Origin: Deinococcales bacterium
Lineage (GTDB): Bacteria; Deinococcota; Deinococci; Deinococcales; JAAFIG01
Direction of reading: 5' to 3'
DNA length: 64,000 nucleotides
Assembly: GCA_031414595.1 (NCBI GenBank)
Contig: JANNVX010000088.1
Coordinates: forward strand, 1-64,000
Shown in pieces: positions 55,735 to 64,000 of this stretch (position 1 is the stretch's first letter; each line of letters begins with the position of its first letter). A program made the position numbers and the translations under genes. The notes beneath the pieces were generated by a model that was not told the DNA's origin, ran no database searches, and saw only the letters and a list, made by a program, of their open reading frames with translations.

Positions 55735-55809
<75 letters not shown>

Positions 55810-55879
55810 AAAGAAAGCCCCGTGATGAACGGGGTTATTTTATTTACCACTTTAGTTTTGTGTTGTGGGGTTTCTCGAG

Positions 55880-55902
55880 CGTGTGCAACGTCGTGTGCAA
55901 CG
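55880..55902. repeat. Tandem 11-bp direct repeat, putative integrase arm-type sites
   Basis: CGTGTGCAACG twice, between the tRNA and the integrase stop. Confidence 0.6.
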
Positions 55903-55906
55903 CGCC

Positions 55907-57256
55907 TCAATTAAGGGGCGAAACTCCAACGGCTAGAGGCTTAACAGGATTCGGAAAGAAGTCAATCACAAATTCTCGCTTCTCGGACTCAAGGACATGG
56001 CGATACACTTTGTAAGTGATTGCAATGTCTGCATGTCCAAGTATTTTACTGACCACCTCAACCGGTACGCCTTTACGAAGCATCAGAGTACCCGCCGTGT
56101 GGCGTAAATCATGGGGTGTGATATGCGGTAGAGACTGTCCTTCTTTTATTAGGGCTTCAATCCCTAAGCGTTGTATTGCTTTGAATATCCTATGACCTCG
56201 AGAAACACCACGCTTGTCAACTTCGGTGTAATACTCCCAACTACTCCAATGTGTTAATTCTTTTAGAGTGCGTTGTAGATTATCAGGATGAGTCCATTGA
56301 CCTGTTTGAGTGGCAAAGACTGCACCTGTATTTGTCCAAGCATCTTCGGCTGTTCTGCGTTCCTCGAGTTGCTGCTTTTGGTGCTGCTCGAGTGCTGCCC
56401 TAAGACTGGCTGGTATCAGAATGTCACGGCTCGAGTGGCTGGTCTTGGTCAGTTCGTCACGGGTTGGTTTACCTTTGGTCACAGTTGCTGTGTGCCGTAT
56501 TCGGATTAGGCTTTTCTCGAGGTCAATATCCTGCCAGCGTAAACCCATGACTTCGGAGCGCCTAAGCCCAATTGAAAACGCTGTGAAGACCGCAACCCAT
56601 AAACGACAAATGCCAGCTTGGTACAAGGCAGTACCCAACTCGTGAAACCTTGCCACTTGGTCAAAGTCCAGAGCAATGTGAGGCTGTTCTGTGCGTACTT
56701 TTTTAATCGTCTTGACCGCTTCGGCTGGTGACACATAAAGAATCTGGTCAGTCACAGCTTCACGCAGTACGGTCTTTAATCGAGTTCGGACATGGGCAAC
56801 GGTACGACTTGCACGGAGCTTACCTGTGTTCTCGAGCTTGCCATTCTTGCGCCGCTTGGTGCTGGTATTTGCCAGCTTGGTCAAAGCCTCTTTGATGTCG
56901 AGCGGCTTTAAGTCTTTAAGACGCTTCTTACCAATAAAAGGCAGTATTAAGCCTAGCTCGTGCTGGTAGGTATCTCGAGTGATTTCACGAACATCTATTT
57001 GCTCGAGCCACCGTTTAACGTACTCGGATAAGGTCACTTGGTCAGAGCTTGCCAGTACGCCGCGTATGTGGTCACTCTTGGCTTGCGTGAGGGCTTCTTC
57101 GGCTTGGGTTTTTGTCTCGGTGATACCACTGGCTAAGGTCTTGCTGTCCGCGTCCCTGAGTTGCCATCTGTACCGGTTGTCTTTGTATTTGCTGATTGAC
57201 CCGCGTCCGTTACCGCGCTTGCCAGTAGTCACAATTTGTTTCTTAGGTCGTGCCAT
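55907..57256 (-). CDS. Tyrosine recombinase / phage integrase
   Basis: RGNGRGSI arm-binding start, GLRRSE, K, HDLRHT, LGH, Y (KVYRH); probable ATG at 57256. Confidence 0.95.
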   Translation of the reverse strand: MARPKKQIVTTGKRGNGRGSISKYKDNRYRWQLRDADSKTLASGITETKTQAEEALTQAKSDHIRGVLASSDQVTLSEYVKRWLEQIDVREITRDTYQHELGLILPFIGKKRLKDLKPLDIKEALTKLANTSTKRRKNGKLENTGKLRASRTVAHVRTRLKTVLREAVTDQILYVSPAEAVKTIKKVRTEQPHIALDFDQVARFHELGTALYQAGICRLWVAVFTAFSIGLRRSEVMGLRWQDIDLEKSLIRIRHTATVTKGKPTRDELTKTSHSSRDILIPASLRAALEQHQKQQLEERRTAEDAWTNTGAVFATQTGQWTHPDNLQRTLKELTHWSSWEYYTEVDKRGVSRGHRIFKAIQRLGIEALIKEGQSLPHITPHDLRHTAGTLMLRKGVPVEVVSKILGHADIAITYKVYRHVLESEKREFVIDFFPNPVKPLAVGVSPLN

Positions 57257-57260
57257 AAGT

Positions 57261-57617
57261 TCAGACTCCCGTCTCGAGGGCTTTATCAAAGATGTTTTTT
57301 AGGGCTGCTCGAGACCGTTCTAAAACATCACCCTCGAGCTTCCCGTACTGCCCGTGTATTCGGCTTGCATCTACTACGCGAAGCTGGTCAAGTAAGAGCG
57401 TACCGTTTAGTTTTAGACCACCGTCTCCCGCCGCTAGTGGGATGTGAAGCGCTGCCTTTTTCATGACTCGCTTGGTAATGGGGGCGATTAGTACCTTTGG
57501 AAAAGTAAGGCGTTGCAAACTGCCAAGGTCAAGAATCAGTAGGCATGGTCTACGTCCTTCTTGCTCATGCCCTTGTGGGTCATGCCTTGGGATGTCTATA
57601 TCAAGAATCAAGCTCAT
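57261..57617 (-). CDS. PemK/MazF family toxin
   Basis: P.GHEQEG.RPCLI, APIT, GGL…G.LLLDQLR.VD..RI. Confidence 0.9.
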   Translation of the reverse strand: MSLILDIDIPRHDPQGHEQEGRRPCLLILDLGSLQRLTFPKVLIAPITKRVMKKAALHIPLAAGDGGLKLNGTLLLDQLRVVDASRIHGQYGKLEGDVLERSRAALKNIFDKALETGV

Positions 57618-58024
57618 GCGGTAGCCTCGAGTAATACAATGCCCTGACCTACAATGTACTTGGCTGGTTTAGCGGCTTTGCGGTTTGCCTCGAGCCATGC
57701 GTTTAGTTCTGCCTTGGGGATGTCTTTCTCGAGTTCATCTAAAGCTCTGCCCATATCGGTCATGCTTGCATTGAGAAGGTCACGTTCTTCGTTATCTTCA
57801 AGTGGTTCTTCTATCACCTCGAGAAGGTCATTAGGTGTGACTGGCTGCCCAGTGATGGTCTCGAGCGTAGACATGACTTTATGGAAAACATCAAACTTCA
57901 CTCCTTTCGCTCTATTACTCGCCATGTCGTAAACAGTGGGACGCGCTAGTCCTGATTCTTTCCAAAGTTTGTAGGGCGTAATGCCGTGACTGTCTAAATA
58001 GTGCTGTAGTTTCCATTGCAACAT
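57614..58024 (-). CDS. Xre/Cro-family HTH protein (repressor/antitoxin)
   Basis: W.L..YL..HGITPYKL..ESGLARPTVY; acidic C-terminal half; ATGA-coupled to the toxin; GGAGG RBS. Confidence 0.85.
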   Translation of the reverse strand: MLQWKLQHYLDSHGITPYKLWKESGLARPTVYDMASNRAKGVKFDVFHKVMSTLETITGQPVTPNDLLEVIEEPLEDNEERDLLNASMTDMGRALDELEKDIPKAELNAWLEANRKAAKPAKYIVGQGIVLLEATA

Positions 58025-58092
58025 ATTAAAAACCTCCGTTAGAACTATAGTCCATTTTAGGCAACATGGCAACCAAGAGTTACTTACGTTAT

Positions 58093-58148
58093 TTCTAGGT
58101 AACATTAGTATGCCTAGAATTGACATATGTAACCTTTAGCGGTATACT
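58093..58148 (+). promoter_or_regulatory. Consensus sigma70 promoter with adjacent operator-like inverted repeat
   Basis: TTGACA(58120)-N17-TATACT(58143); TTCTAGG-N13-CCTAGAA (58093-58119) abuts the -35. Confidence 0.75.
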
Positions 58149-58223
58149 AATATCACTCAAGACCGCACACCCTGAACAAGTCACGGTCTCGAGAATCCCA
58201 AAAAGTTGTAAGGAGTCCAAACC

Positions 58224-58487
58224 ATGATACACCAAGCCACCCCAAGCACTCGAGTAGAACGCATCACTCACAGAATGCTCGAGAAGAACGCCCAAGCCTT
58301 AGAAGTCGTTTACTCAGACAGCCCATACAATGATGCTCGAGTAGAACGCCGTTTAACCCTCACCCTCAACAATGGAATGCTCACAGCTACACGCGGCACT
58401 GGTCGCACAATAGATAACCTTGAGGAAGTTTTAGAAACCGCGTACCAGAACATCATCTCAGTAACACCAAGGACGGTGAGGGCATGA
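58224..58487 (+). CDS. Phage hypothetical protein
   Basis: AAGGAG RBS; first gene after the promoter. Confidence 0.7.
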   Translation: MIHQATPSTRVERITHRMLEKNAQALEVVYSDSPYNDARVERRLTLTLNNGMLTATRGTGRTIDNLEEVLETAYQNIISVTPRTVRA

Positions 58488-58819
58488 CCGCCCTCACTTC
58501 CCCAAGGACAGTACAAACCCGTCCTCTGGGTCGCACTGTTCTAACTGGTTGCCTCTCGCTATTCATTCCAACTACTGGCACAAAACCAGAAGCTCAAGCC
58601 AAACTCAAGACCGTACTCAAAACCATCCGCCCAATTCTCAAGCAGTACAGCAACATCAAAGCCCCACGCTTAACCACGCTCGAGGGACACCGCATCATCA
58701 AAGTAGAATTCTTTGCCATGCCGTGGCGTTTGGTTTGTCGGCTCGAGGATGCACTGATTGCCGTCAGTGGTTGTCAACTTGGCAAGGTGTACCAACTGCA
58801 AAGGATGGTTACAGCATGA
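58484..58819 (+). CDS. Phage hypothetical protein
   Basis: ATGA coupling on both sides. Confidence 0.7.
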   Translation: MTALTSPRTVQTRPLGRTVLTGCLSLFIPTTGTKPEAQAKLKTVLKTIRPILKQYSNIKAPRLTTLEGHRIIKVEFFAMPWRLVCRLEDALIAVSGCQLGKVYQLQRMVTA

Positions 58820-59118
58820 ATACCCTTACTTTTAATTGTGATTGCTGTGGTGCAGTCACCCCTGCTATGCCAGTTTTAGGTTTGTCTTCATTAAATAAGC
58901 GCTCAGATTGTCCAAAATGCCTTGCCCATGAATTACTTTACGATGCCGCCTTAAACCATCTCGAAGAAGCCCAAGACCGTTTAATTCGGGAATGGGTAGC
59001 TTACTGGGTTGCTGCTGGTGTCAAAAGAGAATCCCTTCTTGACTCTGACCCACATCTACACAGTTGTGAAGCCGCAGAACGCACCATTGAAGCCATTAGA
59101 AAAGAGGTAGGGGCATGA
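58816..59118 (+). CDS. Phage protein with putative Zn ribbon
   Basis: CDCC…CPKC; ATGA coupling. Confidence 0.65.
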   Translation: MNTLTFNCDCCGAVTPAMPVLGLSSLNKRSDCPKCLAHELLYDAALNHLEEAQDRLIREWVAYWVAAGVKRESLLDSDPHLHSCEAAERTIEAIRKEVGA

Positions 59119-59381
59119 CCATAAACACCGCCGATCTACCTTTTATTCGTCTTTACATCCTGACCAAAGCCTTTGAAGATATTCCCGCCTCGAGTGAACT
59201 ACTGGTAGACACTCGCCTGACTGGATTAGAAGTCGGTTCGGTGTACATCCTCGAGCTTGTCACTGGTTGCACCTTGTACCGCGTCCCTCCGGAGGGTCTG
59301 GACTTACCAATTCTCGAGCATCCTGTACGGGTCGTCGGTAAAGTCGTCAGGGTCGCAAATAAAAGAGAGATTCGACTATAG
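59115..59381 (+). CDS. Phage hypothetical protein (possibly degenerate S24-like beta domain)
   Basis: LLVDT…..G.VYI … VVGKVV; ATGA coupling. Confidence 0.55.
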   Translation: MTINTADLPFIRLYILTKAFEDIPASSELLVDTRLTGLEVGSVYILELVTGCTLYRVPPEGLDLPILEHPVRVVGKVVRVANKREIRL

Positions 59382-59403
59382 AACTACTAAAGAGGATGCA
59401 AAC

Positions 59404-59565
59404 ATGAAACACAAACCCGTTCGTATTATCCGCTTATACCGTACTAACCTACTTGTATCCAAAGACGATAACCGCATTATTTTGTTCATCGGTAATCGTG
59501 ATTACGCCCTGACCATCCAGAACGCTAAAGCCCTCGCTAATCAACTCCTCGAGGTCACGAAATGA
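59404..59565 (+). CDS. Phage hypothetical protein (53 aa)
   Basis: GAGGA RBS; MKHKPVRIIRL…; followed by a terminator. Confidence 0.55.
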   Translation: MKHKPVRIIRLYRTNLLVSKDDNRIILFIGNRDYALTIQNAKALANQLLEVTK

Positions 59566-59603
59566 ATTGAATCCTAACCACTGATGCCAGCCAGTAAAAC
59601 GAA

Positions 59604-59637
59604 AAAAGCTCCTCGGGCGCGAACTCGAGGAGCTTTT
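59604..59637. terminator. Bidirectional intrinsic terminator
   Basis: AAAAGCTCCTCG-N10-CGAGGAGCTTTT between convergent units. Confidence 0.8.
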
Positions 59638-59652
59638 GGTATTTATAAGAGA

Positions 59653-59820
59653 CTAAACTGGTTGCTCTTGTTCTTCTAAATCAGATTCATTCCAAGCAGG
59701 GTCATCCAAGTAGTTTGCACCAAGTTGCAACACTGGTATCGTGGTGTAGCTGTCATTACGTGGTGATTCTAAGTCTGGCACACCGCGTTCGAGTTGTGGA
59801 ATGTAACCTTTGAGTATCAT
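59653..59820 (-). CDS. Small acidic hypothetical protein
   Basis: MILKGYIPQLE…DLEEQEQPV; start uncertain. Confidence 0.4.
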   Translation of the reverse strand: MILKGYIPQLERGVPDLESPRNDSYTTIPVLQLGANYLDDPAWNESDLEEQEQPV

Positions 59821-59849
59821 TTTGCCACCATCCAAGAATTCTGACTTAC

Positions 59850-60053
59850 CTAAGACTCCAATGGCAAACGCACATTTTGGGCTATCCATTCGGGCGGCGC
59901 AAACTTGATAAAGCCCTCGACAAAACGCCCTGCGTTGGCTTCGTTTATGGCGCGGGTCAGCATGGTGTCAAAGGCAGCAACGTCAAGTAAACCATCGGCT
60001 TTTAACTGCCGTGTTTCCTGCTGTAGCTCCTTCATTTTTTCCCAATTAACCAT
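59850..60053 (-). CDS. Small hypothetical protein
   Basis: MVNWEKMKELQQE…; GAGGGTG upstream. Confidence 0.5.
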   Translation of the reverse strand: MVNWEKMKELQQETRQLKADGLLDVAAFDTMLTRAINEANAGRFVEGFIKFAPPEWIAQNVRLPLES

Positions 60054-60082
60054 AAGCACCCTCGAGTAATTTTAGCACTTCG

Positions 60083-60119
60083 ACGATTAAAGTATATCTC
60101 ACTGCTATACTTTAATCGT
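60083..60119. repeat. Perfect 14-bp inverted repeat with 9-bp spacer
   Basis: ACGATTAAAGTATA-TCTCACTGC-TATACTTTAATCGT. Confidence 0.9.
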
Positions 60120-60204
60120 TTGCCCTAAACACAAGTTAATCGCTACGCTCCATGCTTCGCATAAAAAAACGTGTGTTCCGCTTCGCGGTGAAAAGACTCG
60201 AAAA

Positions 60205-60225
60205 GCTACCAGCACGGGCTGGAGC
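60205..60225. repeat. 21-bp hairpin element, inverted copy at 61572-61592
   Basis: GCTACCAGCACGGGCTGGAGC vs reverse complement GCTATCAGCACGGGCTGGAGC (20/21). Confidence 0.85.
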
Positions 60226-60500
60226 ATCCCTTCAAGGCTGAAGCCAAAGCAGCTCTGGTACTACCCACAAGAGGCTTCTTAGGGGCGAACTCGCACGGAA
60301 TCACACAGCAAAAAGCGGCTGTGTGTTCCTAAGCTCGAGGCAACCCAGTAACCAGCTTAAAAACCAAGTCTCGAGTACAACCAACCCCTAAAGCTGTAAA
60401 AATCTGCTCTCGAGCTAACTGCCCCAACCCTATGCTTTAGCTTATTCTTTAAGCCTTTAGCCCCACCCAAAACACTTCAATAAATGCGTTTTATTGCGTC

Positions 60501-60547
60501 CAGTACGATATAAACTGCTTGACAATTCCACTATAAAATAGTAAACT
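60501..60547 (+). promoter_or_regulatory. Promoter copy 1 (leaderless, DprA-like gene)
   Basis: TTGACA(60519)-N17-TAAACT(60542), ATG 5 nt later; upstream 25 bp are 22/25 identical to 61004-61028. Confidence 0.75.
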
Positions 60548-60552
60548 ATTAT

Positions 60553-60999
60553 ATGTTTAACAGTCTTATTGTTGCTGTTGTCGGAAGCCGTCACGGTTCA
60601 AACTTACCTGTAGCCCAAGTCTGTTATCACCTTCTTGGGCAGCATTGCCAAATCGTTACGGGTTGCGCGGCTGGTGTAGATCATCAAGTGCGCCAAGCCA
60701 TCCCAAACGCCAAGGTTATCAGTGCCATGTCTTTTGTTCGTCGTGGCTTGCCTGTTTCGGCTGCGCTTGCTGCTCGTACCAAAGCAGTTATCTCGAATAG
60801 TCAAGCGGTTTGTATTTTCCCGCCGGCTAATGGCAATCTTGGTCCAGGTTCGTTACTGGCTTTGCAATCAGCACTTAAACAAAACATTCCTGTTTGGGTG
60901 GCTGGTTCTAAACCACCTACTCAACTGGGTTGGCAACCGTTCGTACTTTCGGGTGTTTCAGGTTGGTTCTTTAATTGTGGTTTAAATTCGCTTTTTTAG
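60553..60999 (+). CDS. Minimal DprA/Smf (SLOG superfamily) domain protein
   Basis: VAVVGSR, IVTGCAAGVD, LAART.AVI, GS…..A…..PVW; single domain of 148 aa. Confidence 0.7.
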   Translation: MFNSLIVAVVGSRHGSNLPVAQVCYHLLGQHCQIVTGCAAGVDHQVRQAIPNAKVISAMSFVRRGLPVSAALAARTKAVISNSQAVCIFPPANGNLGPGSLLALQSALKQNIPVWVAGSKPPTQLGWQPFVLSGVSGWFFNCGLNSLF

Positions 61000-61003
61000 T
61001 GTT

Positions 61004-61051
61004 CAGTACAATATAAATTACTTGACAAACACACCTATACTGTGTTACTAT
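61004..61051 (+). promoter_or_regulatory. Promoter copy 2
   Basis: CAGTACAATATAAATTAC-TTGACA … TGTTACTAT (extended -10). Confidence 0.7.
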
Positions 61052-61146
61052 TTAAGTCAGAAAGGAGTTTATAGACCGCCAAAAAAAGAACCCAGTGCGC
61101 TAACACTGGGTAAGCAATCCCCCTAAGCAATAGAAAGGAATACACC

Positions 61147-61356
61147 ATGAACAATAGCATTAACCGCTCACTTTTCGCTCGAGCCAAAACCCTTACTAAC
61201 GGCGAATGGTCAGACCTGTACCGCGCTTACCTTGGTGGCACACCAAACCCAGTCTATACAGACTCCCGCAGTGGCAAAACCAAAGGCTTTAGCCGCGCCG
61301 AGGTTTCCCTGCTCGAACAACGCCTAGGCACACCACGTCAGCAGGTGGGGGCATGA
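61147..61356 (+). CDS. Small hypothetical protein (69 aa)
   Basis: AAAGGA RBS; ends QVGA* with ATGA coupling. Confidence 0.65.
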   Translation: MNNSINRSLFARAKTLTNGEWSDLYRAYLGGTPNPVYTDSRSGKTKGFSRAEVSLLEQRLGTPRQQVGA

Positions 61357-61526
61357 CCGCCCCCTTTTCCCTTCCTGCTTACACGCCCCCAGAAATCTAT
61401 GGGGACGACTGGGAAGAACTCAAAGCATGGAAACTCGAGGACGAATTAGAAATGGAAACCCAAGCACTCGAATTAGCTGCCAGTCCGTTCGGAAATGTTC
61501 CAGATTCAAGTCCTTTACCGTTCTAA
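61353..61526 (+). CDS. Small acidic protein ending in PLPF (57 aa, not in ORF track)
   Basis: MTAPFSLPAYTPPEIYGDDWEELKAWKLEDELEMETQALELAASPFGNVPDSSPLPF; coupled start; hairpin at 61536-61563 follows. Confidence 0.6.
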   Translation: MTAPFSLPAYTPPEIYGDDWEELKAWKLEDELEMETQALELAASPFGNVPDSSPLPF

Positions 61527-61571
61527 AATCGTTCAAGCCCTCGAGTTCTTAAGCTCGAGGGCTAAACACTC

Positions 61572-61592
61572 GCTCCAGCCCGTGCTGATAGC
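61572..61592. repeat. Inverted partner of 60205-60225
   Basis: GCTCCAGCCCGTGCTGATAGC. Confidence 0.85.
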
Positions 61593-61615
61593 AAATATCA
61601 AAGGAGTTTGACCGC

Positions 61616-61909
61616 ATGACAAAAATCACTAAATACCTAACTGTCACACCATTACGCGAAATGAAAGAACACGCCAAAATCATTTGGTTATGGTTAATGG
61701 ACAATCAAAACGTTGCTATCACCATCCGCGACCTTGGCGAACTGCTAAACATGACTCCTTTAACGGTCAGTCGAAGCATCATTGCACTTGAACAAAACAA
61801 ATTACTGACTCGAATCTCCATCAAAGGGATACGCGGTCAATCGTTTTCGTACCAAGCAACAATTCCAAGTACCGTACCGCTCGAGCCAAAAAAAAGGCAT
61901 AAATCCTGA
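61616..61909 (+). CDS. Winged-helix DNA-binding protein
   Basis: AK..WL.L……TIRDLGELLNMTPLTVSRSIIALE..KLL.R; AAGGAG RBS. Confidence 0.75.
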   Translation: MTKITKYLTVTPLREMKEHAKIIWLWLMDNQNVAITIRDLGELLNMTPLTVSRSIIALEQNKLLTRISIKGIRGQSFSYQATIPSTVPLEPKKRHKS

Positions 61910-61923
61910 TCAGGATTTATGCC
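61896..61923 (-). terminator. Perfect 28-bp palindrome, probable terminator of the minus-strand late genes
   Basis: GGCATAAATCCTGATCAGGATTTATGCC preceded by an A-run (U-tract on the minus strand). Confidence 0.6.
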
Positions 61924-61940
61924 AAAAACCAATGGGTTAA

Positions 61941-62285
61941 TTACAGTTTTTGCTCAGGTTCTAAATCATCTGCTTTACGCGGTGCAGTACCACCGGGTAA
62001 CAACTCATCACCATTGGGAAGGCTTGGCAAACCAATCCGCGCTCGAGCTTCGTTTAAGGTCAACAAACCATACTGCACATGATATGCCCGCAGTCCAATA
62101 CTATCTTCAATACCAAGAGATTTAAGTTTGAACTGAACTAACAAAGGGGCAATGTCAATGTTTAAGTCAGTTAATTTTGTCATTGCGTCAGCTAGGACAG
62201 CGTAGGTTTCGGCTTTCTTCTGCACAAGTTCAGCCTGACCCATATCTAACTCGAGTTGCATTTTTAATTCGGACAAAGTGGACAT
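61941..62285 (-). CDS. Small protein carrying a portal-protein C-terminal motif
   Basis: GLLTLNEARARIGLPSLPNGDELL resembles the G..T.NE.R…GLPP..GGD end of HK97-type portals; only 114 aa. Confidence 0.55.
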   Translation of the reverse strand: MSTLSELKMQLELDMGQAELVQKKAETYAVLADAMTKLTDLNIDIAPLLVQFKLKSLGIEDSIGLRAYHVQYGLLTLNEARARIGLPSLPNGDELLPGGTAPRKADDLEPEQKL

Positions 62286-62296
62286 TTCATTTCTCC

Positions 62297-62917
62297 TTAG
62301 CGTTTTGGTCCCTGGCTTGGTTTAGGTGGCGTGTTAGTTGCTTTAGAATCACCAGTGCTTGGTACTGTCGCAGAGGTTAAAGGCTTAATAGAACCATCGG
62401 GATTAAGCCGACTAACAGGAACTCCTAAGCGCTTGGCGGTATCAGCAAGCGTTTCACTACCCGGTGCGGCTACGGTTTTGCCTTTCTCGAGTTTTGGACG
62501 GTTGTTGGTTAGTTTAATGGTGTACCTGATAAAGTTCTTAACCTGATTTGTCCAGTCAAGCTCCACACCTTCGACCACCATGCTCGAGATTTGCCACAAC
62601 CTTAACAATGGATGCTCGACCAGTACAGGTACAACCTTATCACCAGTCCCCGGATTCTTATAGGCTTGACGCAAACGCTGTACAGCTTGTAAATCCTCAG
62701 CACTCGAAATAAGCATTTCAAATTCCATCGTTTCTTCTGACCAGCGTGGATCTGGGTAAATCGCACCATTCTTGCCAGGTATCCCCTCGCGGGTCATCAG
62801 TAATTTTGCCCCGAGGCGAACCCGTTGGATTACACCTGGCATTTTGACCCCAGCTATGATTAAGGTTTCCCAAGTTTTCGGGTCTTCCAATGGTGTAGGT
62901 ACTTCAATTGCCATCAT
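62297..62917 (-). CDS. Putative contractile-tail tube-initiator protein with degenerate LysM
   Basis: L.IAG..MPG, IPG..G, V.HPLL….I pattern; ETLADTAKRLGVPVSRLNP is LysM-like. Confidence 0.55.
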   Translation of the reverse strand: MMAIEVPTPLEDPKTWETLIIAGVKMPGVIQRVRLGAKLLMTREGIPGKNGAIYPDPRWSEETMEFEMLISSAEDLQAVQRLRQAYKNPGTGDKVVPVLVEHPLLRLWQISSMVVEGVELDWTNQVKNFIRYTIKLTNNRPKLEKGKTVAAPGSETLADTAKRLGVPVSRLNPDGSIKPLTSATVPSTGDSKATNTPPKPSQGPKR

Positions 62918-63459
62918 GCACCCCCAGCAGTTTGGAACGGTTCAACACCATTCCAAACAATGCCATTTTGAACCAGAAAATCTAGTTTCATGGTTACTAA
63001 CTTGCTGCTTGTGGACGAACTAAGCGGACGTTTGATAAGACGGCACTCTCGGAGCGTATCCTTAATCACTGGACTAGATACATCAACGGATTTACCATTA
63101 GGTGAACGAATGCTTTGCGGTGCAGAATAAATCACGGTAAACGTAAAGGGCGGATGAAGGATTCCCGCTTGAAAAAACGGTGCAAAAACACGTTCGTAAT
63201 CTTCACGCAGTACCTCGAGACTGGCTTGGGCTTTGTAATTCCCAATGCCAATATCTTTAGGGGCAATTCCAGCCCCATAGGATTCTTCTAAAGCCAGTTC
63301 GTCAGAGTAATCAATACTGGTAAAGGCAATAGCTCGAGCATTCTTTTGTTCTTCGGGTTTCCTTGGGTTAGACCGATGCACGTACAATTCAAGTCGAGTG
63401 AAACTATAGAAAACACGATTAACAAATTCACCACTAAAACTATTTTGAGCTTGTTGCAT
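62914..63459 (-). CDS. Putative contractile tail tube protein
   Basis: SIDYSDEL..E..YG.G..P…G.GNYKA..SLE.LREDY motif seen in myovirus tube proteins; AGGAGG RBS before ATG 63459. Confidence 0.65.
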   Translation of the reverse strand: MQQAQNSFSGEFVNRVFYSFTRLELYVHRSNPRKPEEQKNARAIAFTSIDYSDELALEESYGAGIAPKDIGIGNYKAQASLEVLREDYERVFAPFFQAGILHPPFTFTVIYSAPQSIRSPNGKSVDVSSPVIKDTLRECRLIKRPLSSSTSSKLVTMKLDFLVQNGIVWNGVEPFQTAGGA

Positions 63460-63504
63460 GGTCAATCCTCCTTTTTGTCACCCTTTTGTAGAGGGTCTTT
63501 GGGT

Positions 63505-63795
63505 TTAGTCGTCTTCAAACCTAAGGTCGTCGTCTAGGTCGTCGTCAAGGTCGTCGCCAGCGTCCCCTATCAGTGCTTTGTATTCATCCATAGACAGGTA
63601 CTCAACATCTGGCTTTTGTGCTTTCGCTCTTGGTGGCTTGGGTACTGCCTCGAGTCTCGCGTACATTGCACAGGCTTGGACTACAGCATGGGCTGCTGCG
63701 ATTCGGTCAGATGCGGATTGCTTGGCATCTTCGGCAATAACTCGAGCGCATTCTGTGGCACTAGACAGCGCTTTTAATGCCTGTTCGCGGTTCAT
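63505..63795 (-). CDS. Hypothetical helical protein with acidic DDLD-repeat tail
   Basis: IAED…SASDRIAAA…; tail DDLDDDLDDDL from a 12-nt repeat; start uncertain. Confidence 0.55.
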   Translation of the reverse strand: MNREQALKALSSATECARVIAEDAKQSASDRIAAAHAVVQACAMYARLEAVPKPPRAKAQKPDVEYLSMDEYKALIGDAGDDLDDDLDDDLRFEDD

Positions 63796-64000
63796 TGGTT
63801 TTCGTCTCGAGTGTCTTGCTGTGCGAGTGCTTGCCATAATTGTTAGTGTCTCACCCCCTGTGGTGTCGCATATGGTGTTTTGTTGCCCCTGTTTTGCCGC
63901 TCTTTTGTTGCTCGGTTTTAGTGGGTCATGCTTTCGCCTTGCCTTTGATGTACTCGAGGTATGAATGCTCGAGTACATCATTTGAATAATTGCTTAGGTA

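What the first reader, a model, noticed from the sequence alone, without database searches (positions are those of the whole stretch)
60205..61592. Inverted-hairpin-bounded cassette: minimal DprA/SLOG gene, duplicated promoters and an SSB-tail-like peptide (best candidate novel system)
Seen: 21-bp hairpin elements in inverted orientation (20/21; loops ACGG and CCGT) enclose about 1.35 kb. Inside are a structured non-coding tract, a promoter, a 148-aa single-domain DprA/SLOG-like gene with a T-rich, A-poor coding strand unlike its A/C-rich neighbours, a second copy of the promoter (22/25), a 69-aa ORF and a 57-aa acidic ORF. Known: DprA binds ssDNA and loads RecA; other SLOG proteins bind or process nucleotides in conflict systems. 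Inference: a discrete module acting on or as ssDNA, such as an invertible or excisable unit, an ssDNA-protection or anti-defence leading region, or an inhibitor of host transformation.
Basis: partly seen in the sequence, partly recalled or inferred. Interest (0 to 1): 0.72.

Follow-up and report, generated by a model that had tools for sequence, protein, structure and literature searches.

The report
Prophage DprA-like gene module, repeat-flanked
A prophage carries a tiny DprA-like DNA-binding gene, a small acidic protein with an SSB-like tail and a small regulator, a gene set shared with plasmids of heat- and radiation-tolerant bacteria, while the flanking inverted repeat is real but looks like a local feature, not the border of a mobile unit.

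Summary
The 20/21 inverted repeat is the only one of its quality in the 64-kb window, with 0 in 40 shuffles. The 22/25 promoter repeat, the three ORFs and the T-rich gene are also confirmed.

The 148-aa ORF folds with high confidence (pLDDT 93.5), and its best solved-structure matches are DprA and ShosA. It scores below Pfam's DprA cut-off and belongs to a rare family. That family lies on mobile elements of Deinococcota and Rubrobacter, including 10 Thermus plasmids.

The conserved unit is not the repeat-bounded segment:
- A small winged-helix gene just outside the right arm follows the DprA-like gene in 12 of 15 loci with enough sequence.
- No other locus shows a comparable repeat.
- There is no invertase, no transposase and no target duplication.

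Two new leads came up:
- The family ends in a Q-x-x-L-F-type tail resembling a beta-clamp-binding motif (26 of 32 end in LF).
- Genes just downstream repeatedly end in an acidic ...PF tail resembling that of SSB (5 of 92 versus 4 of 2466 ORFs).

I read this as an accessory DNA replication or recombination module of mobile elements. Its function is inferred, not shown. It is a new variant of a known kind, of moderate interest.

The parts
60083..60119 (.). Perfect 14-bp inverted repeat with a 9-bp spacer (operator-like palindrome). It lies in the divergent intergenic region, left of the finding.
   Evidence: I4, 100% complementary; -16.7 kcal/mol, z -6.2. A regulatory role is inferred.
60205..60225 (.). 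Left arm of the 21-nt inverted repeat. It contains a 5-bp stem and an ACGG loop. On the - strand it is followed by a T-rich tail (terminator-like).
   Evidence: (I1).
60298..60330 (+). Stable hairpin in the non-coding tract. It is followed by copy 1 of a 16-nt direct repeat (60325-60340).
   Evidence: -21.1 kcal/mol, z -4.0; D9, 15/16. The direct repeat contains the genome-wide abundant CTCGAG and is only weakly significant (my estimate).
60489..60547 (+). Promoter region P1: a 37-nt repeat copy (60489-60525) that includes the -35 TTGACA, and a -10 TAAACT ending 5 nt before the ATG. No Shine-Dalgarno sequence is present, so the mRNA is probably leaderless.
   Evidence: (D2); sequence. Leaderless expression is inferred.
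60553..60999 (+). 148-aa single-domain DprA-like (SLOG-fold) protein with a flexible C-terminal tail ending LNSLF.
60992..61051 (+). Promoter region P2: the second copy of the 37-nt repeat (60992-61028), and TTGACA-18-TACTAT with TG.
   Evidence: (D2).
61090..61111 (-). Terminator-like hairpin on the minus strand (9-bp stem, then TCTTTTTTTG). It sits inside the 5' leader of the 69-aa ORF.
   Evidence: (-16.1 kcal/mol, z -2.5). Which transcript it would end is unknown.
61147..61356 (+). 69-aa basic orphan ORF.
   Evidence: One homologue only, 99% identical, on the same 77-kb contig as the 96% relative of the DprA-like gene. No family hit.
61353..61526 (+). 57-aa acidic ORF. Its start overlaps the stop of the 69-aa ORF (ATGA) inside a G+C hairpin. 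It has one predicted helix and ends ...NVPDSSPLPF.
   Evidence: It is the only 1 of 703 window ORFs of >=30 aa that ends in PF.
61536..61563 (+). Strong 12-bp-stem hairpin after the 57-aa ORF, with no T-run. It contains copy 2 of the 16-nt direct repeat (61545-61560).
   Evidence: -22.1 kcal/mol, z -6.05; D9.
61572..61592 (.). Right arm of the inverted repeat, 24 nt upstream of the winged-helix gene.
61616..61909 (+). 97-aa MarR/ArsR-like winged-helix protein, the conserved partner of the DprA-like gene. It lies outside the repeat-bounded segment.
   Evidence: (profile of the neighbours from 8 loci hits it at E 1.2e-8).
61896..61923 (.). Perfect 14-bp palindrome. It is terminator-like with a T-run on the - strand and has an A-run before it on the + strand. 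It separates the + strand early genes from the - strand late genes.
   Evidence: (I8).

Best explanation
The segment is the far end of the early region of a prophage. The prophage sits next to tRNA-Thr in an ordinary bacterial chromosome, and relatives of its genes point to Deinococcota.

It holds two transcription units with near-identical promoter regions:
- Unit 1 is a probably leaderless gene for a 148-aa single-domain DprA-like protein.
- Unit 2 encodes a 69-aa orphan protein and a 57-aa acidic protein ending in LPF. After a strong hairpin and the right repeat arm, it also encodes a 97-aa winged-helix regulator.

The unit conserved in evolution is the DprA-like gene, often a small acidic protein with a ...PF end, and the winged-helix gene. 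This set is a backbone element of Thermus plasmids and of other mobile elements of Deinococcota.

Proposed mechanism (inferred, not shown):
- The DprA-like domain binds single-stranded DNA.
- Its flexible Q-x-x-L-F-type C-terminus tethers it to the host beta sliding clamp.
- The PF-tailed protein occupies pockets that normally receive the C-terminal tail of SSB.
- The winged-helix protein regulates the unit.
- Together they plug the element's DNA into the host replication and recombination hub, helping its replication or establishment.

The 21-nt inverted repeat is real but specific to this lineage. It is most likely a pair of protein-binding sites or transcript-end hairpins, not recombination sites.
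For: Shown:
- Prophage context: tRNA-Thr; integrase, a MazF-like gene with an HTH gene, and a tail gene; ordinary host genes elsewhere in the window.
- DprA-like fold: the family profile matches H. pylori, S. pneumoniae and R. palustris DprA over positions 15-123 of 155 (E 5e-4 to 0.025). The model has pLDDT 93.5 and pTM 0.88. All 11 Foldseek PDB hits at E<=1e-3 are DprA or ShosA, with TM 0.56-0.63 on the query.
- ssDNA-contact residues: three H. pylori DprA arginines (R52, R143, R170; passages of PMC12961424) map through the alignment to R13 and R75, which are invariant or nearly so, and to Q105.
- Distribution: 17 of 17 genome loci come from Deinococcota, Rubrobacter or unnamed MAGs. There are also 10 Thermus plasmids of 19-25 kb.
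- Winged-helix partner: it lies on the same strand 1.2-3.0 kb downstream in 12 of 15 loci with >=2.4 kb of downstream DNA. The window's own copy is hit at E 1.2e-8. Plasmid annotation shows the same order.
- C-terminal tail: 26 of 32 family proteins have LF within the last 3 residues, and 12 of 32 read QxxLF. The tail is the only low-confidence part of the model (last block mean pLDDT 63). The published clamp-binding consensus is Q-L-x-L-F, often at C-termini (passages of PMC4549789).
- PF tails: 5 of 92 same-strand ORFs starting within 1 kb after the gene end in PF, against 4 of 2466 other ORFs (Fisher p 6e-6). All five have at least one acidic residue within the seven residues before the PF. 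SSB tails are DDDIPF or DDDLPF (passages of PMC5531588).
- Neighbours on related elements include a Rad52-like protein (E 0.006, below the Pfam cut-off), a 790-aa ORF with no Pfam hit that I read by eye as a primase-helicase, ParA, DUF7222 and DUF6876.

Inferred: ssDNA binding, clamp docking, SSB-pocket binding, the regulatory role of the winged-helix protein, and the role in replication or establishment.
Against: - No binding or activity was tested.
- The window's own tails are degenerate. LNSLF lacks the glutamine of the clamp motif. SSPLPF has a single aspartate where SSB has an acidic run.
- The PF-tail pattern was noticed after looking at the data, the ORFs were not curated, and two of the five cases are homologues of each other. 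Among 8 Thermus-type homologues of one such protein, 3 lack the PF end.
- BLASTP finds no similarity between the window's 57-aa protein and the 57-aa PF-tailed protein of locus L003.
- The third DprA ssDNA arginine is Q in the window protein.
- The match to Pfam DprA is below the curated cut-off (23.9 versus 29.6 bits).
- The three Rubrobacter loci lack the winged-helix partner.
- In the Thermus plasmids studied in PMC12724237 (section 5 read) the replication proteins are unrelated proteins of 430-454 aa, so the module is not the replicon itself.
- The inverted repeat remains without a demonstrated function.
Confidence: 0.4

Rival explanations
1. Anti-defence or antitoxin mimic. The phage and plasmid DprA-like protein stands in for, or titrates the trigger of, abortive-infection systems whose antitoxins are DprA-like (ShosTA, PsyrTA). 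More generally it could mask the element's ssDNA or RecA signals from host sensors.
For: - Weak PADLOC hits to ShosA (E 2.8e-4) and PsyrA (E 2.7e-3).
- Foldseek hit to the ShosA structure 8zva (E 3.2e-4, TM 0.56).
- ShosA needs ssDNA binding and RecA binding to neutralise its toxin (passages of PMC12961424).
- Related loci carry DUF7222 and DUF6876 genes next to the module. I recall these from plasmid anti-defence or leading regions; I did not check that here.
Against: - The PADLOC hits cover only residues 3-49, the motif shared by all DprA-like proteins.
- The protein lacks the SAM domain of ShosA.
- No ShosT- or PsyrT-like gene is in the window.
- This reading explains neither the LF tail nor the PF-tailed neighbour.
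Confidence: 0.15
2. Dominant-negative DprA. A Rossmann-only copy binds incoming ssDNA or RecA and blocks the host's natural transformation or recombination, for example to exclude competitors.
For: - The protein is a DprA-like Rossmann domain without the other DprA domains.
- In DprA this domain carries dimerisation, ssDNA binding and RecA contact (recalled; the papers are listed in the references of PMC12961424).
- Thermus and Deinococcus are naturally competent (recalled).
Against: - The same family sits on small non-mobilizable Thermus plasmids, which probably depend on transformation to spread.
- No DprA dimer or RecA-contact residues could be checked.
- It does not explain the conserved partners.
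Confidence: 0.1
3. Nucleotide-binding or nucleotide-processing SLOG protein (like LOG or the ThsA sensor) acting on a small molecule, not on DNA.
For: - Foldseek also finds the ThsA SLOG domain (7uxs, TM 0.52), molybdenum-cofactor carrier proteins (2iz5, TM 0.56) and a LOG-like protein (1rcu, TM 0.53).
- The nearest viral models are DUF2493 / YspA-type SLOG proteins of unknown function.
Against: - All 11 hits at E<=1e-3 are DprA or ShosA.
- The sequence profile hits only DprA among solved structures at E<0.05.
- Two DprA ssDNA-contact arginines are conserved.
Confidence: 0.1
4. One reading: the two 21-nt arms are recombination sites, and the 1.35-kb segment is an invertible, excisable or transposable cassette.
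For: The repeat is far beyond chance: it is the only such pair in 64 kb, with 0 of 40 shuffles showing any. The segment carries its own promoters.
Against: - No serine invertase or transposase was found among the 16 neighbouring ORFs. The only recombinase is the prophage integrase about 3 kb away.
- There is no target duplication and no extension of the repeat.
- The conserved winged-helix partner lies outside the segment.
- 0 of 14 related loci has a flanking repeat at >=90% complementarity, and 0 of 8 shows any above-shuffle repeat.
- The 14-nt core is absent from all 23 fetched loci.
- Inversion of a segment that carries whole genes with their own promoters would change little.
Confidence: 0.05

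Closest known systems
DprA / Smf recombination mediator (Pfam PF02481; structures 4LJK, 3UQZ, 3MAJ)
   Same: Same Rossmann-like fold. The G-S/T-R and G-x-A-x-G-[VI]-D motifs are shared, and two of three ssDNA-contact arginines are conserved.
   Different: - 148 aa, with no SAM or C-terminal domain, and about 28 residues shorter within the fold.
- Below the Pfam and TIGRFAM cut-offs.
- Carries an LF-type C-terminal tail.
- Encoded on phages and plasmids, not as the chromosomal competence gene.
ShosA and PsyrA, DprA-like antitoxins of anti-phage systems
   Same: DprA-like fold (8zva, TM 0.56) and weak profile hits.
   Different: No SAM domain, no partner toxin gene nearby, half the size.
Small single-domain SLOG proteins of phages and plasmids (DUF2493 / YAcAr PF10686, 'YspA cpYpsA-related', mycobacteriophage D29 gp61, Mx8 p23)
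   Same: Same size class and fold. There are 40 BFVD models at E<=1e-3, and the ESM Atlas neighbours are mostly viral clusters of 149-159 aa. These proteins also have no known function.
   Different: None of the 27 family members scanned hits PF10686 at E<=0.01, while 13 of 27 hit DprA instead. Whether those phage proteins carry an LF tail or PF-tailed neighbours was not examined.
Proteins with a C-terminal beta-clamp-binding motif (Q-L-x-L-F), e.g. IS transposases and polymerases
   Same: Position at the very C-terminus, L-F at motif positions 4-5, Q at position 1 in 12 of 32 family members, and a flexible tail in the model.
   Different: The window clade reads [L/I/S]-N-S-L-F, without the glutamine. 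Binding was not tested.
C-terminal tail of bacterial SSB (DDDIPF / DDDLPF)
   Same: Terminal [L/V/A]-P-F. Relatives have acidic residues before it (EDLPF, EEVPF, DELAPF).
   Different: The carriers are small helical proteins without an OB fold. The window's tail SSPLPF has no acidic run.
Invertible segments of phages (Gin/gix of Mu, Cin/cix of P1), from memory
   Same: Short inverted repeats flanking about 1-3 kb inside a prophage.
   Different: No adjacent invertase. The content is not a tail-fibre switch. The genes inside are complete and have their own promoters.

Membership tests
DprA (PF02481 / TIGR00732) | Score above the curated family cut-off | tested here: not met
   Pfam 23.9 bits against a cut-off of 29.6, covering residues 5-49 only. 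TIGR00732 20.3 bits against 191.
DprA (PF02481 / TIGR00732) | DprA-type Rossmann fold | tested here: met
   Model pLDDT 93.5. All 11 PDB hits at E<=1e-3 are DprA or ShosA. The profile aligns over the whole domain.
DprA (PF02481 / TIGR00732) | ssDNA-contact arginines (H. pylori R52, R143, R170) | tested here: inconclusive
   They map to R13 and R75 (conserved) and Q105 (not arginine) through the alignment. The residue list comes from passages of PMC12961424. A numbering offset of +4 is assumed; it fits all three.
DprA (PF02481 / TIGR00732) | Accessory SAM and/or C-terminal winged-helix domain (recalled as usual in DprA) | tested here: not met
   148 aa, with a single domain in the model.
DprA (PF02481 / TIGR00732) | Loads RecA on ssDNA during transformation | not testable with these tools
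   Needs biochemistry or genetics.
SLOG superfamily | SLOG-type Rossmannoid fold | tested here: met
   DprA, ThsA-SLOG, MCP and LOG-like structures are all retrieved, and DUF2493/YspA viral models as well.
DUF2493 / YAcAr (PF10686) | Match to the family profile | tested here: not met
   0 of 27 family members hit it at E<=0.01. There is only structural likeness and likeness to Atlas clusters in which 18-59% of members carry it.
Beta-clamp-binding proteins | Q-L-x-L-F-type motif, usually at a flexible terminus | tested here: inconclusive
   Family: 26 of 32 have LF within the last 3 residues, and 12 of 32 read QxxLF. The window protein reads LNSLF, without Q. The tail has low pLDDT.
Beta-clamp-binding proteins | Physical binding to DnaN | not tested
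   No dnaN was found among the 17 large host ORFs scanned.
SSB C-terminal tail mimics | Acidic run followed by [I/L]-P-F at the very C-terminus | tested here: inconclusive
   The window protein ends PDSSPLPF: LPF is present but there is one acidic residue only. Relatives end EDLPF, EEVPF or DELAPF.
Invertible segment (serine-invertase type) | Inverted sites plus an adjacent invertase gene | tested here: not met
   The sites are present. No resolvase or invertase family was found among the 16 ORFs of 55.9-64 kb.
Transposable element with terminal inverted repeats (IS / MITE-like) | Terminal inverted repeats with flanking target-site duplication, and a transposase in cis or trans | tested here: not met
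   The bases abutting the arms differ (CGAAAA | ... | AAATAT). No transposase family was found. There are no further copies of the arm in the window.
ShosTA / PsyrTA defence systems | DprA-like antitoxin next to its toxin (PRTase or RecQ-like helicase) | tested here: not met
   No such neighbour in Pfam or PADLOC scans of the region.

The most novel reading that the evidence does not exclude
Mobile elements of Deinococcota and Rubrobacter carry a two-part device for hijacking the host replisome. One part is a minimal DprA-like ssDNA binder that rides on the host beta clamp through its C-terminal tail. The other is a small acidic protein whose end imitates the SSB tail. Together they would redirect the host's clamp and SSB-client network to the element's own single-stranded DNA. 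If so, the large class of small SLOG / DUF2493 proteins of phages would have its first testable mechanism.
Probability: 0.2. Interest if true: 0.7.

Novelty: new variant of a known kind. Interest (0 to 1): 0.45.

Why it matters
Small single-domain DprA/SLOG proteins are common in phages and plasmids, and their function is unknown. This family adds three concrete handles:
- a C-terminal tail that looks like a sliding-clamp hook;
- a recurring neighbour that ends like SSB;
- a fixed regulator partner.

Each of these can be tested with peptides, pull-downs and deletions in Thermus laboratory strains. If the clamp and SSB-pocket links hold, they would show how mobile DNA in naturally competent, polyploid extremophiles plugs into the host replication and recombination hub. 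If they fail, the region is an ordinary accessory operon of a prophage with an unexplained but local inverted repeat.

Tried and rejected
- Complex prediction of the DprA-like protein with the 57-aa protein (alignments A3 and A5, collected): no verdict, score 0.00 against a mark of 0.32. This is evidence neither for nor against binding.
- Fold of the 57-aa protein alone: low confidence (pLDDT 65.5), one helix at residues 14-42.
- Rfam: nothing at gathering score in 57000-64000. The three sub-threshold matches sit on hairpins and are chance-level.
- Phage collection: no protein match for the 148-aa ORF and no DNA match for 57500-64000.
- A roughly 105-aa gene that precedes the DprA-like gene in 8 loci is absent from the window (tblastn, profile). 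It is not a detectable paralogue of the DprA-like family (hhalign probability 1.9%).
- The module as the plasmid replicon: rejected. Thermus plasmids of this collection have separate putative replication proteins of 430-454 aa (PMC12724237, section 5).
- The winged-helix protein gives only generic MarR/ArsR/DtxR-type matches and a weak DnaD-like PHROG hit (E 1.2e-3).
- The 69-aa ORF: no family hit and no Atlas neighbour.
- Absence of CTCGAG from the 148-aa gene: not significant, since 7.8% of 447-nt windows have none.
- A minus-strand small RNA running from a weak promoter (60559-60530) to the left arm, and an antisense RNA ending at the 61111-61090 terminator, were considered. They rest on consensus scans only.
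- Long-range pairing of the two arms in one + strand transcript would give 20 of 21 pairs with a C-A mismatch. No promoter or processing evidence supports it.
Full report
1. What is in the sequence

The two arms, GCTACCAGCACGGGCTGGAGC at 60205-60225 and its 20/21 reverse complement at 61572-61592, are there, with 1346 nt between them. The 21-mer has no third copy in the window even at 3 mismatches, and none is expected by chance. A scan of my own found this to be the only non-overlapping inverted pair of >=21 nt with <=1 mismatch and arms <=2 kb apart in the whole 64 kb. In 40 dinucleotide shuffles, 0 had such a pair. So the repeat is real and not chance.

As hairpins the arms are weak. The left arm has a 5-bp stem with loop ACGG (-12.3 kcal/mol, z -2.2). 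In the right arm the one mismatch falls in the stem and leaves 4 bp on the + strand (-6.8 kcal/mol, z -2.1). The repeat stops at 21 nt, and the bases outside the arms are not a direct repeat.

Much stronger hairpins lie close by:
- 61536-61563 (z -6.05);
- 60298-60330 (z -4.0);
- a perfect 14-bp palindrome at 60083-60119 (z -6.2).

The two promoter-like sites and their shared 25-mer (22/25, only these two copies) are confirmed. The likeness extends over 37 nt at 81% and lies at and upstream of the -35 hexamer, as a shared operator or UP element would.

The non-coding tract is only modestly structured (z -2.8 and -3.2), and Rfam has nothing above a gathering score.

The 148-aa gene does have a T-rich, A-poor coding strand: AT skew -0.27 and 46% T at third codon positions. 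Its + strand neighbours have skews of +0.12 to +0.24, and host ORFs range from -0.26 to +0.17. The protein has no glutamate and one aspartate, so both codon choice and amino-acid make-up contribute.

The -10 hexamer of the first promoter ends 5 nt before the ATG and there is no Shine-Dalgarno sequence. I read this as a leaderless mRNA. That such mRNAs are common in Deinococcus is recalled, not tested.

2. Context

- A tRNA-Thr gene lies at 55735-55809.
- It is followed by a tyrosine integrase, a MazF-like gene overlapping an HTH_26 gene, and a divergent promoter pair.
- A short + strand early operon follows, ended by a strong terminator.
- Two - strand ORFs come next, then the finding, then - strand genes with a tail-protein hit (PHROG 4579, E 2.5e-14).
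- This is a prophage that runs off the end of the window.
- The rest of the window holds ordinary chromosomal genes such as glmM, wecB, leuC, prfA and murJ.
- Nothing in the phage collection resembles the region.

3. The 148-aa protein

Single-sequence searches give only sub-threshold DprA hits over residues 5-49: Pfam E 2.7e-5 at 23.9 bits, below the 29.6 cut-off, and TIGR00732 E 2.5e-4.

The family is rare:
- 16 clusters at E<=1e-3 in the 5.8-billion-cluster collection. The nearest is 96% identical, then 67-69% (and a 103-aa fragment at 78%), and the rest are 52% or less.
- 45 representatives at E<=1e-3 among 1.84 billion proteins, 16 of them at <=1e-10.

Evidence that it is DprA-like:
- A profile of 27 members matches DprA of H. 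pylori (E about 5e-4), S. pneumoniae (3.8e-3) and R. palustris (0.025) across the whole Rossmann domain, with a gap of about 28 residues.
- 13 of 27 members hit Pfam DprA at E<=0.01, and none hits any other family.
- AlphaFold2 with 41 sequences gives pLDDT 93.5 and pTM 0.88. Only the last eight residues are uncertain.
- In the PDB search, all 11 matches at E<=1e-3 are DprA or the DprA-like antitoxin ShosA (TM 0.56-0.63 on the query). Other SLOG folds follow: ThsA, the molybdenum-cofactor carrier and a LOG-like protein.
- Among viral models there are 40 matches at E<=1e-3. They are small DUF2493, 'YspA cpYpsA-related SLOG' and 'DprA-like' proteins, including D29 gp61 and Mx8 p23. The ESM Atlas points the same way.

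Small proteins of this kind are a known, uncharacterised class in phages.

Three arginines that contact ssDNA in H. pylori DprA are named in passages of PMC12961424. Two of them align with invariant or nearly invariant arginines of the family, R13 and R75. The third aligns with Q105 in the window protein.

4. Where the family lives and what travels with it

- five from Trueperaceae MAGs, four of them from one genome;
- two from Thermus;
- five from Deinococcus or Deinococcales;
- three from Rubrobacter or Rubrobacteraceae;
- one MAG labelled Aquificota;
- one unnamed bacterium.

Ten Thermus plasmids of 19-25 kb carry it as well, always annotated 'hypothetical protein' or not annotated at all.

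All-against-all BLASTP found no window ORF other than this gene and the integrase with a relative in those loci. A profile of the roughly 85-aa winged-helix protein that follows the gene in eight loci nevertheless hits the window's 97-aa ORF at 61616-61909 with E 1.2e-8 (alignment).

Counting all 22 loci:
- The winged-helix gene lies on the same strand 1.2-3.0 kb downstream in 13.
- Among the 15 loci with at least 2.4 kb of downstream DNA it is present in 12. The three without it are the Rubrobacter loci.
- Eight of the 13 were used to build the profile. Five of them, plus the window, are independent detections.

Plasmid annotations show the same order: the gene, three small hypothetical genes, then a helix-turn-helix gene.

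Other neighbours on these elements are ParA, a zeta-toxin-like gene, DUF7222, DUF6876, a Rad52-like protein (E 0.006, below the Pfam cut-off), a large ORF I read by eye as a primase-helicase (no Pfam hit), and a conserved cluster of an AAA ATPase, a TolC-like protein and a YdjM-like hydrolase.

The conserved partner of the DprA-like gene therefore sits outside the repeat-bounded 'cassette'.

5. Two short tails

First, the family's C-terminus. In the alignment the last two residues, L-F, are invariant among the 17 closest members. Of 32 members with E<=1e-10, 26 have LF within the last three residues and 12 read Q-x-x-L-F. One reads the exact consensus QLSLF. In the loci, 10 of 15 ORFs end in LF, and 8 of those read QxxLF. 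The Thermus plasmid copies end QSSLF or QGGLF. The published consensus of the beta-clamp-binding motif is Q-L-x-L-F, often at the C-terminus (passages of PMC4549789). The tail is the flexible part of the model. The window's clade reads [L/I/S]NSLF, without the glutamine.

Second, the 57-aa protein.
- It is the only 1 of 703 window ORFs of >=30 aa that ends in PF.
- Across the window and 16 loci, 5 of 92 same-strand ORFs that start within 1 kb after the DprA-like gene end in PF, against 4 of 2466 other ORFs (Fisher p 6e-6).
- The five ends are SSPLPF (window), EDLPF (L003, also 57 aa), EEVPF (L006), EEEVPF (L018) and DELAPF (L014).
- Three more Thermus plasmids have EEVPF. Of 8 homologues of that Thermus protein, 5 keep the end and 3 do not.
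- SSB tails read DDDIPF or DDDLPF (passages of PMC5531588).
- The window protein's only relative is 81% identical, with all 11 changes in residues 1-47 and the last ten residues unchanged.

Caveats:
- I saw the pattern after looking at the data.
- The ORFs are uncurated.
- L006 and L018 are homologues of each other.
- BLASTP finds no similarity between the two 57-aa proteins.
- The window's tail lacks the acidic run.

6. The inverted repeat in relatives

- In 14 related loci, no inverted repeat of >=17 nt at >=90% complementarity flanks the gene. The best flanking pairs are 19 nt at 84% (L011), 27 nt at 74% (L006) and 31 nt at 71% (L014); I did not test these against shuffles.
- I compared the 400 nt upstream of the gene unit with the 150 nt upstream of the winged-helix gene. 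Only the window shows matches above shuffle level (21 nt inverted, 16 nt direct). 0 of 8 other loci do.
- The 14-nt core of the arm is absent from all 23 fetched loci.

These relatives are only 39-46% identical. The 96% and 67-78% relatives could not be fetched, so conservation at short range is unchecked.

7. How it most likely works

Shown:
- the prophage setting;
- the two units with similar promoter regions;
- the DprA-like fold;
- the conserved winged-helix partner;
- the two tail patterns.

Inferred: the protein binds ssDNA as DprA does. Its tail docks on the host sliding clamp. The PF-tailed protein uses the pockets made for the SSB tail. The winged-helix protein controls expression, and it is a candidate binder of the shared promoter element or of the two arms, each of which contains a near-palindrome of the size such dimers bind. 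The set serves replication, recombination or establishment of the element.

I give this reading 0.4. The rivals are an anti-defence or antitoxin mimic (0.15), a dominant-negative DprA (0.1), a nucleotide-binding SLOG protein (0.1) and an invertible or mobile cassette (0.05). They are set out in their own section.

8. Comparison with what is known, and novelty

By fold it is a DprA-like SLOG protein. By the curated profiles it is not a DprA family member, and it lacks DprA's other domains. It resembles the small DUF2493 / YspA-type proteins of phages in size and fold but matches no profile of theirs.

Literature searches:
- 'DprA' with 'clamp-binding motif': one review only.
- 'SSB-Ct', 'mimic' and 'phage': 10 papers, 9 of them listed. 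Judged from titles and abstract starts of those 9, none describes small non-SSB proteins with such a tail.
- 'DprA-like', 'SLOG', 'plasmid', 'phage': 89 papers, of which 15 were listed, and no paper on this family among those listed.

These searches cover only open-access papers and preprints. Supplementary files were not consulted.

I rate it a new variant of a known kind. The fold class is known. The clamp-type tail, the PF-tailed neighbour, the fixed regulator partner and the restriction to Deinococcota and Rubrobacter elements appear to be new.

9. Papers and how far I read them

- PMC12724237: outline and section 5.
- PMC5531588, PMC4549789 and PMC12961424: passages found by term.
- All other papers: search listings only.

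Noticed in passing
whole window (1-64000); also loci L011, L016, L001-L005: The palindrome CTCGAG occurs 361 times in 64 kb, against 7.6 expected. Its density is 5.6 per kb in the host part and 5.9 per kb in the prophage. Many other 6-bp palindromes (AAGCTT, ACTAGT, AGATCT, AGGCCT, AGTACT, ATGCAT, ATTAAT, CACGTG) do not occur at all. A Deinococcales MAG locus (L011) has 102 CTCGAG sites in 12 kb. This looks like a HIP1-like hyper-abundant palindrome combined with strong palindrome avoidance.
   Followed up: partly
window 55735-58126: tRNA-Thr(CGT) is followed by a tyrosine integrase (55907-57289, -) and a MazF-like toxin gene (57261-57617, -) overlapping an upstream HTH_26 gene (57614-58126, -). 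This marks the prophage left end, with a toxin-antitoxin-like pair in the repressor position.
   Followed up: partly
window 60083-60119: A perfect 14-bp inverted repeat with a 9-bp spacer. Each half contains TATACT. It lies between the divergent 67/69-aa ORF (59850-60059, -) and the finding. It is operator-like or a pair of face-to-face -10 boxes.
   Followed up: no
window 58473-58490, 59106-59120 and 61347-61364: Three gene junctions of the early region share G(A/G)GGGCATGACC, with stop and start overlapping as ATGA. Two of them fold into G+C hairpins that enclose the start codon (-16.8 kcal/mol with z -3.7, and -13.9 kcal/mol with z -1.1). This suggests translational coupling, and it marks the 69/57-aa pair as native to this phage.
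   Followed up: partly
window 61090-61111 (- strand): A well-formed terminator-like hairpin with a T7 tail on the minus strand, inside the 5' leader of the 69-aa ORF. There is no minus-strand ORF upstream of it. A weak minus-strand promoter-like site lies at 61622-61594. This could mean an antisense RNA.
   Followed up: no
loci L001-L005, L008, L011, L015 (e.g. L001:7658-7975): A conserved protein of about 105 aa, rich in G/A/V/S/W (FSAS.VLGSR.GSV...VSGC.G.AWVW...FLRVRG...WW), directly precedes the DprA-like gene in 8 loci. It appears fused to it in two database proteins (P0027, P0028). It is absent from the window and has no Pfam family.
   Followed up: partly
loci L001, L003, L006, L010, L012, L015, L018: A gene cluster of an AAA ATPase, a TolC-like protein and a YdjM-like membrane hydrolase with a long coiled-coil tail recurs next to the module, on Thermus plasmids and in Trueperaceae and Deinococcus loci. 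Its function is unknown.
   Followed up: no
loci L001, L003, L004, L005: One Trueperaceae MAG (locus G+C 38-40%) holds four copies of the module on three contigs, suggesting several related plasmids or integrated elements in one genome.
   Followed up: no
locus L009: A contig of a MAG labelled Aquificota has 74.5% G+C and carries Thermus-type versions of the module genes. It may be mis-binned.
   Followed up: no
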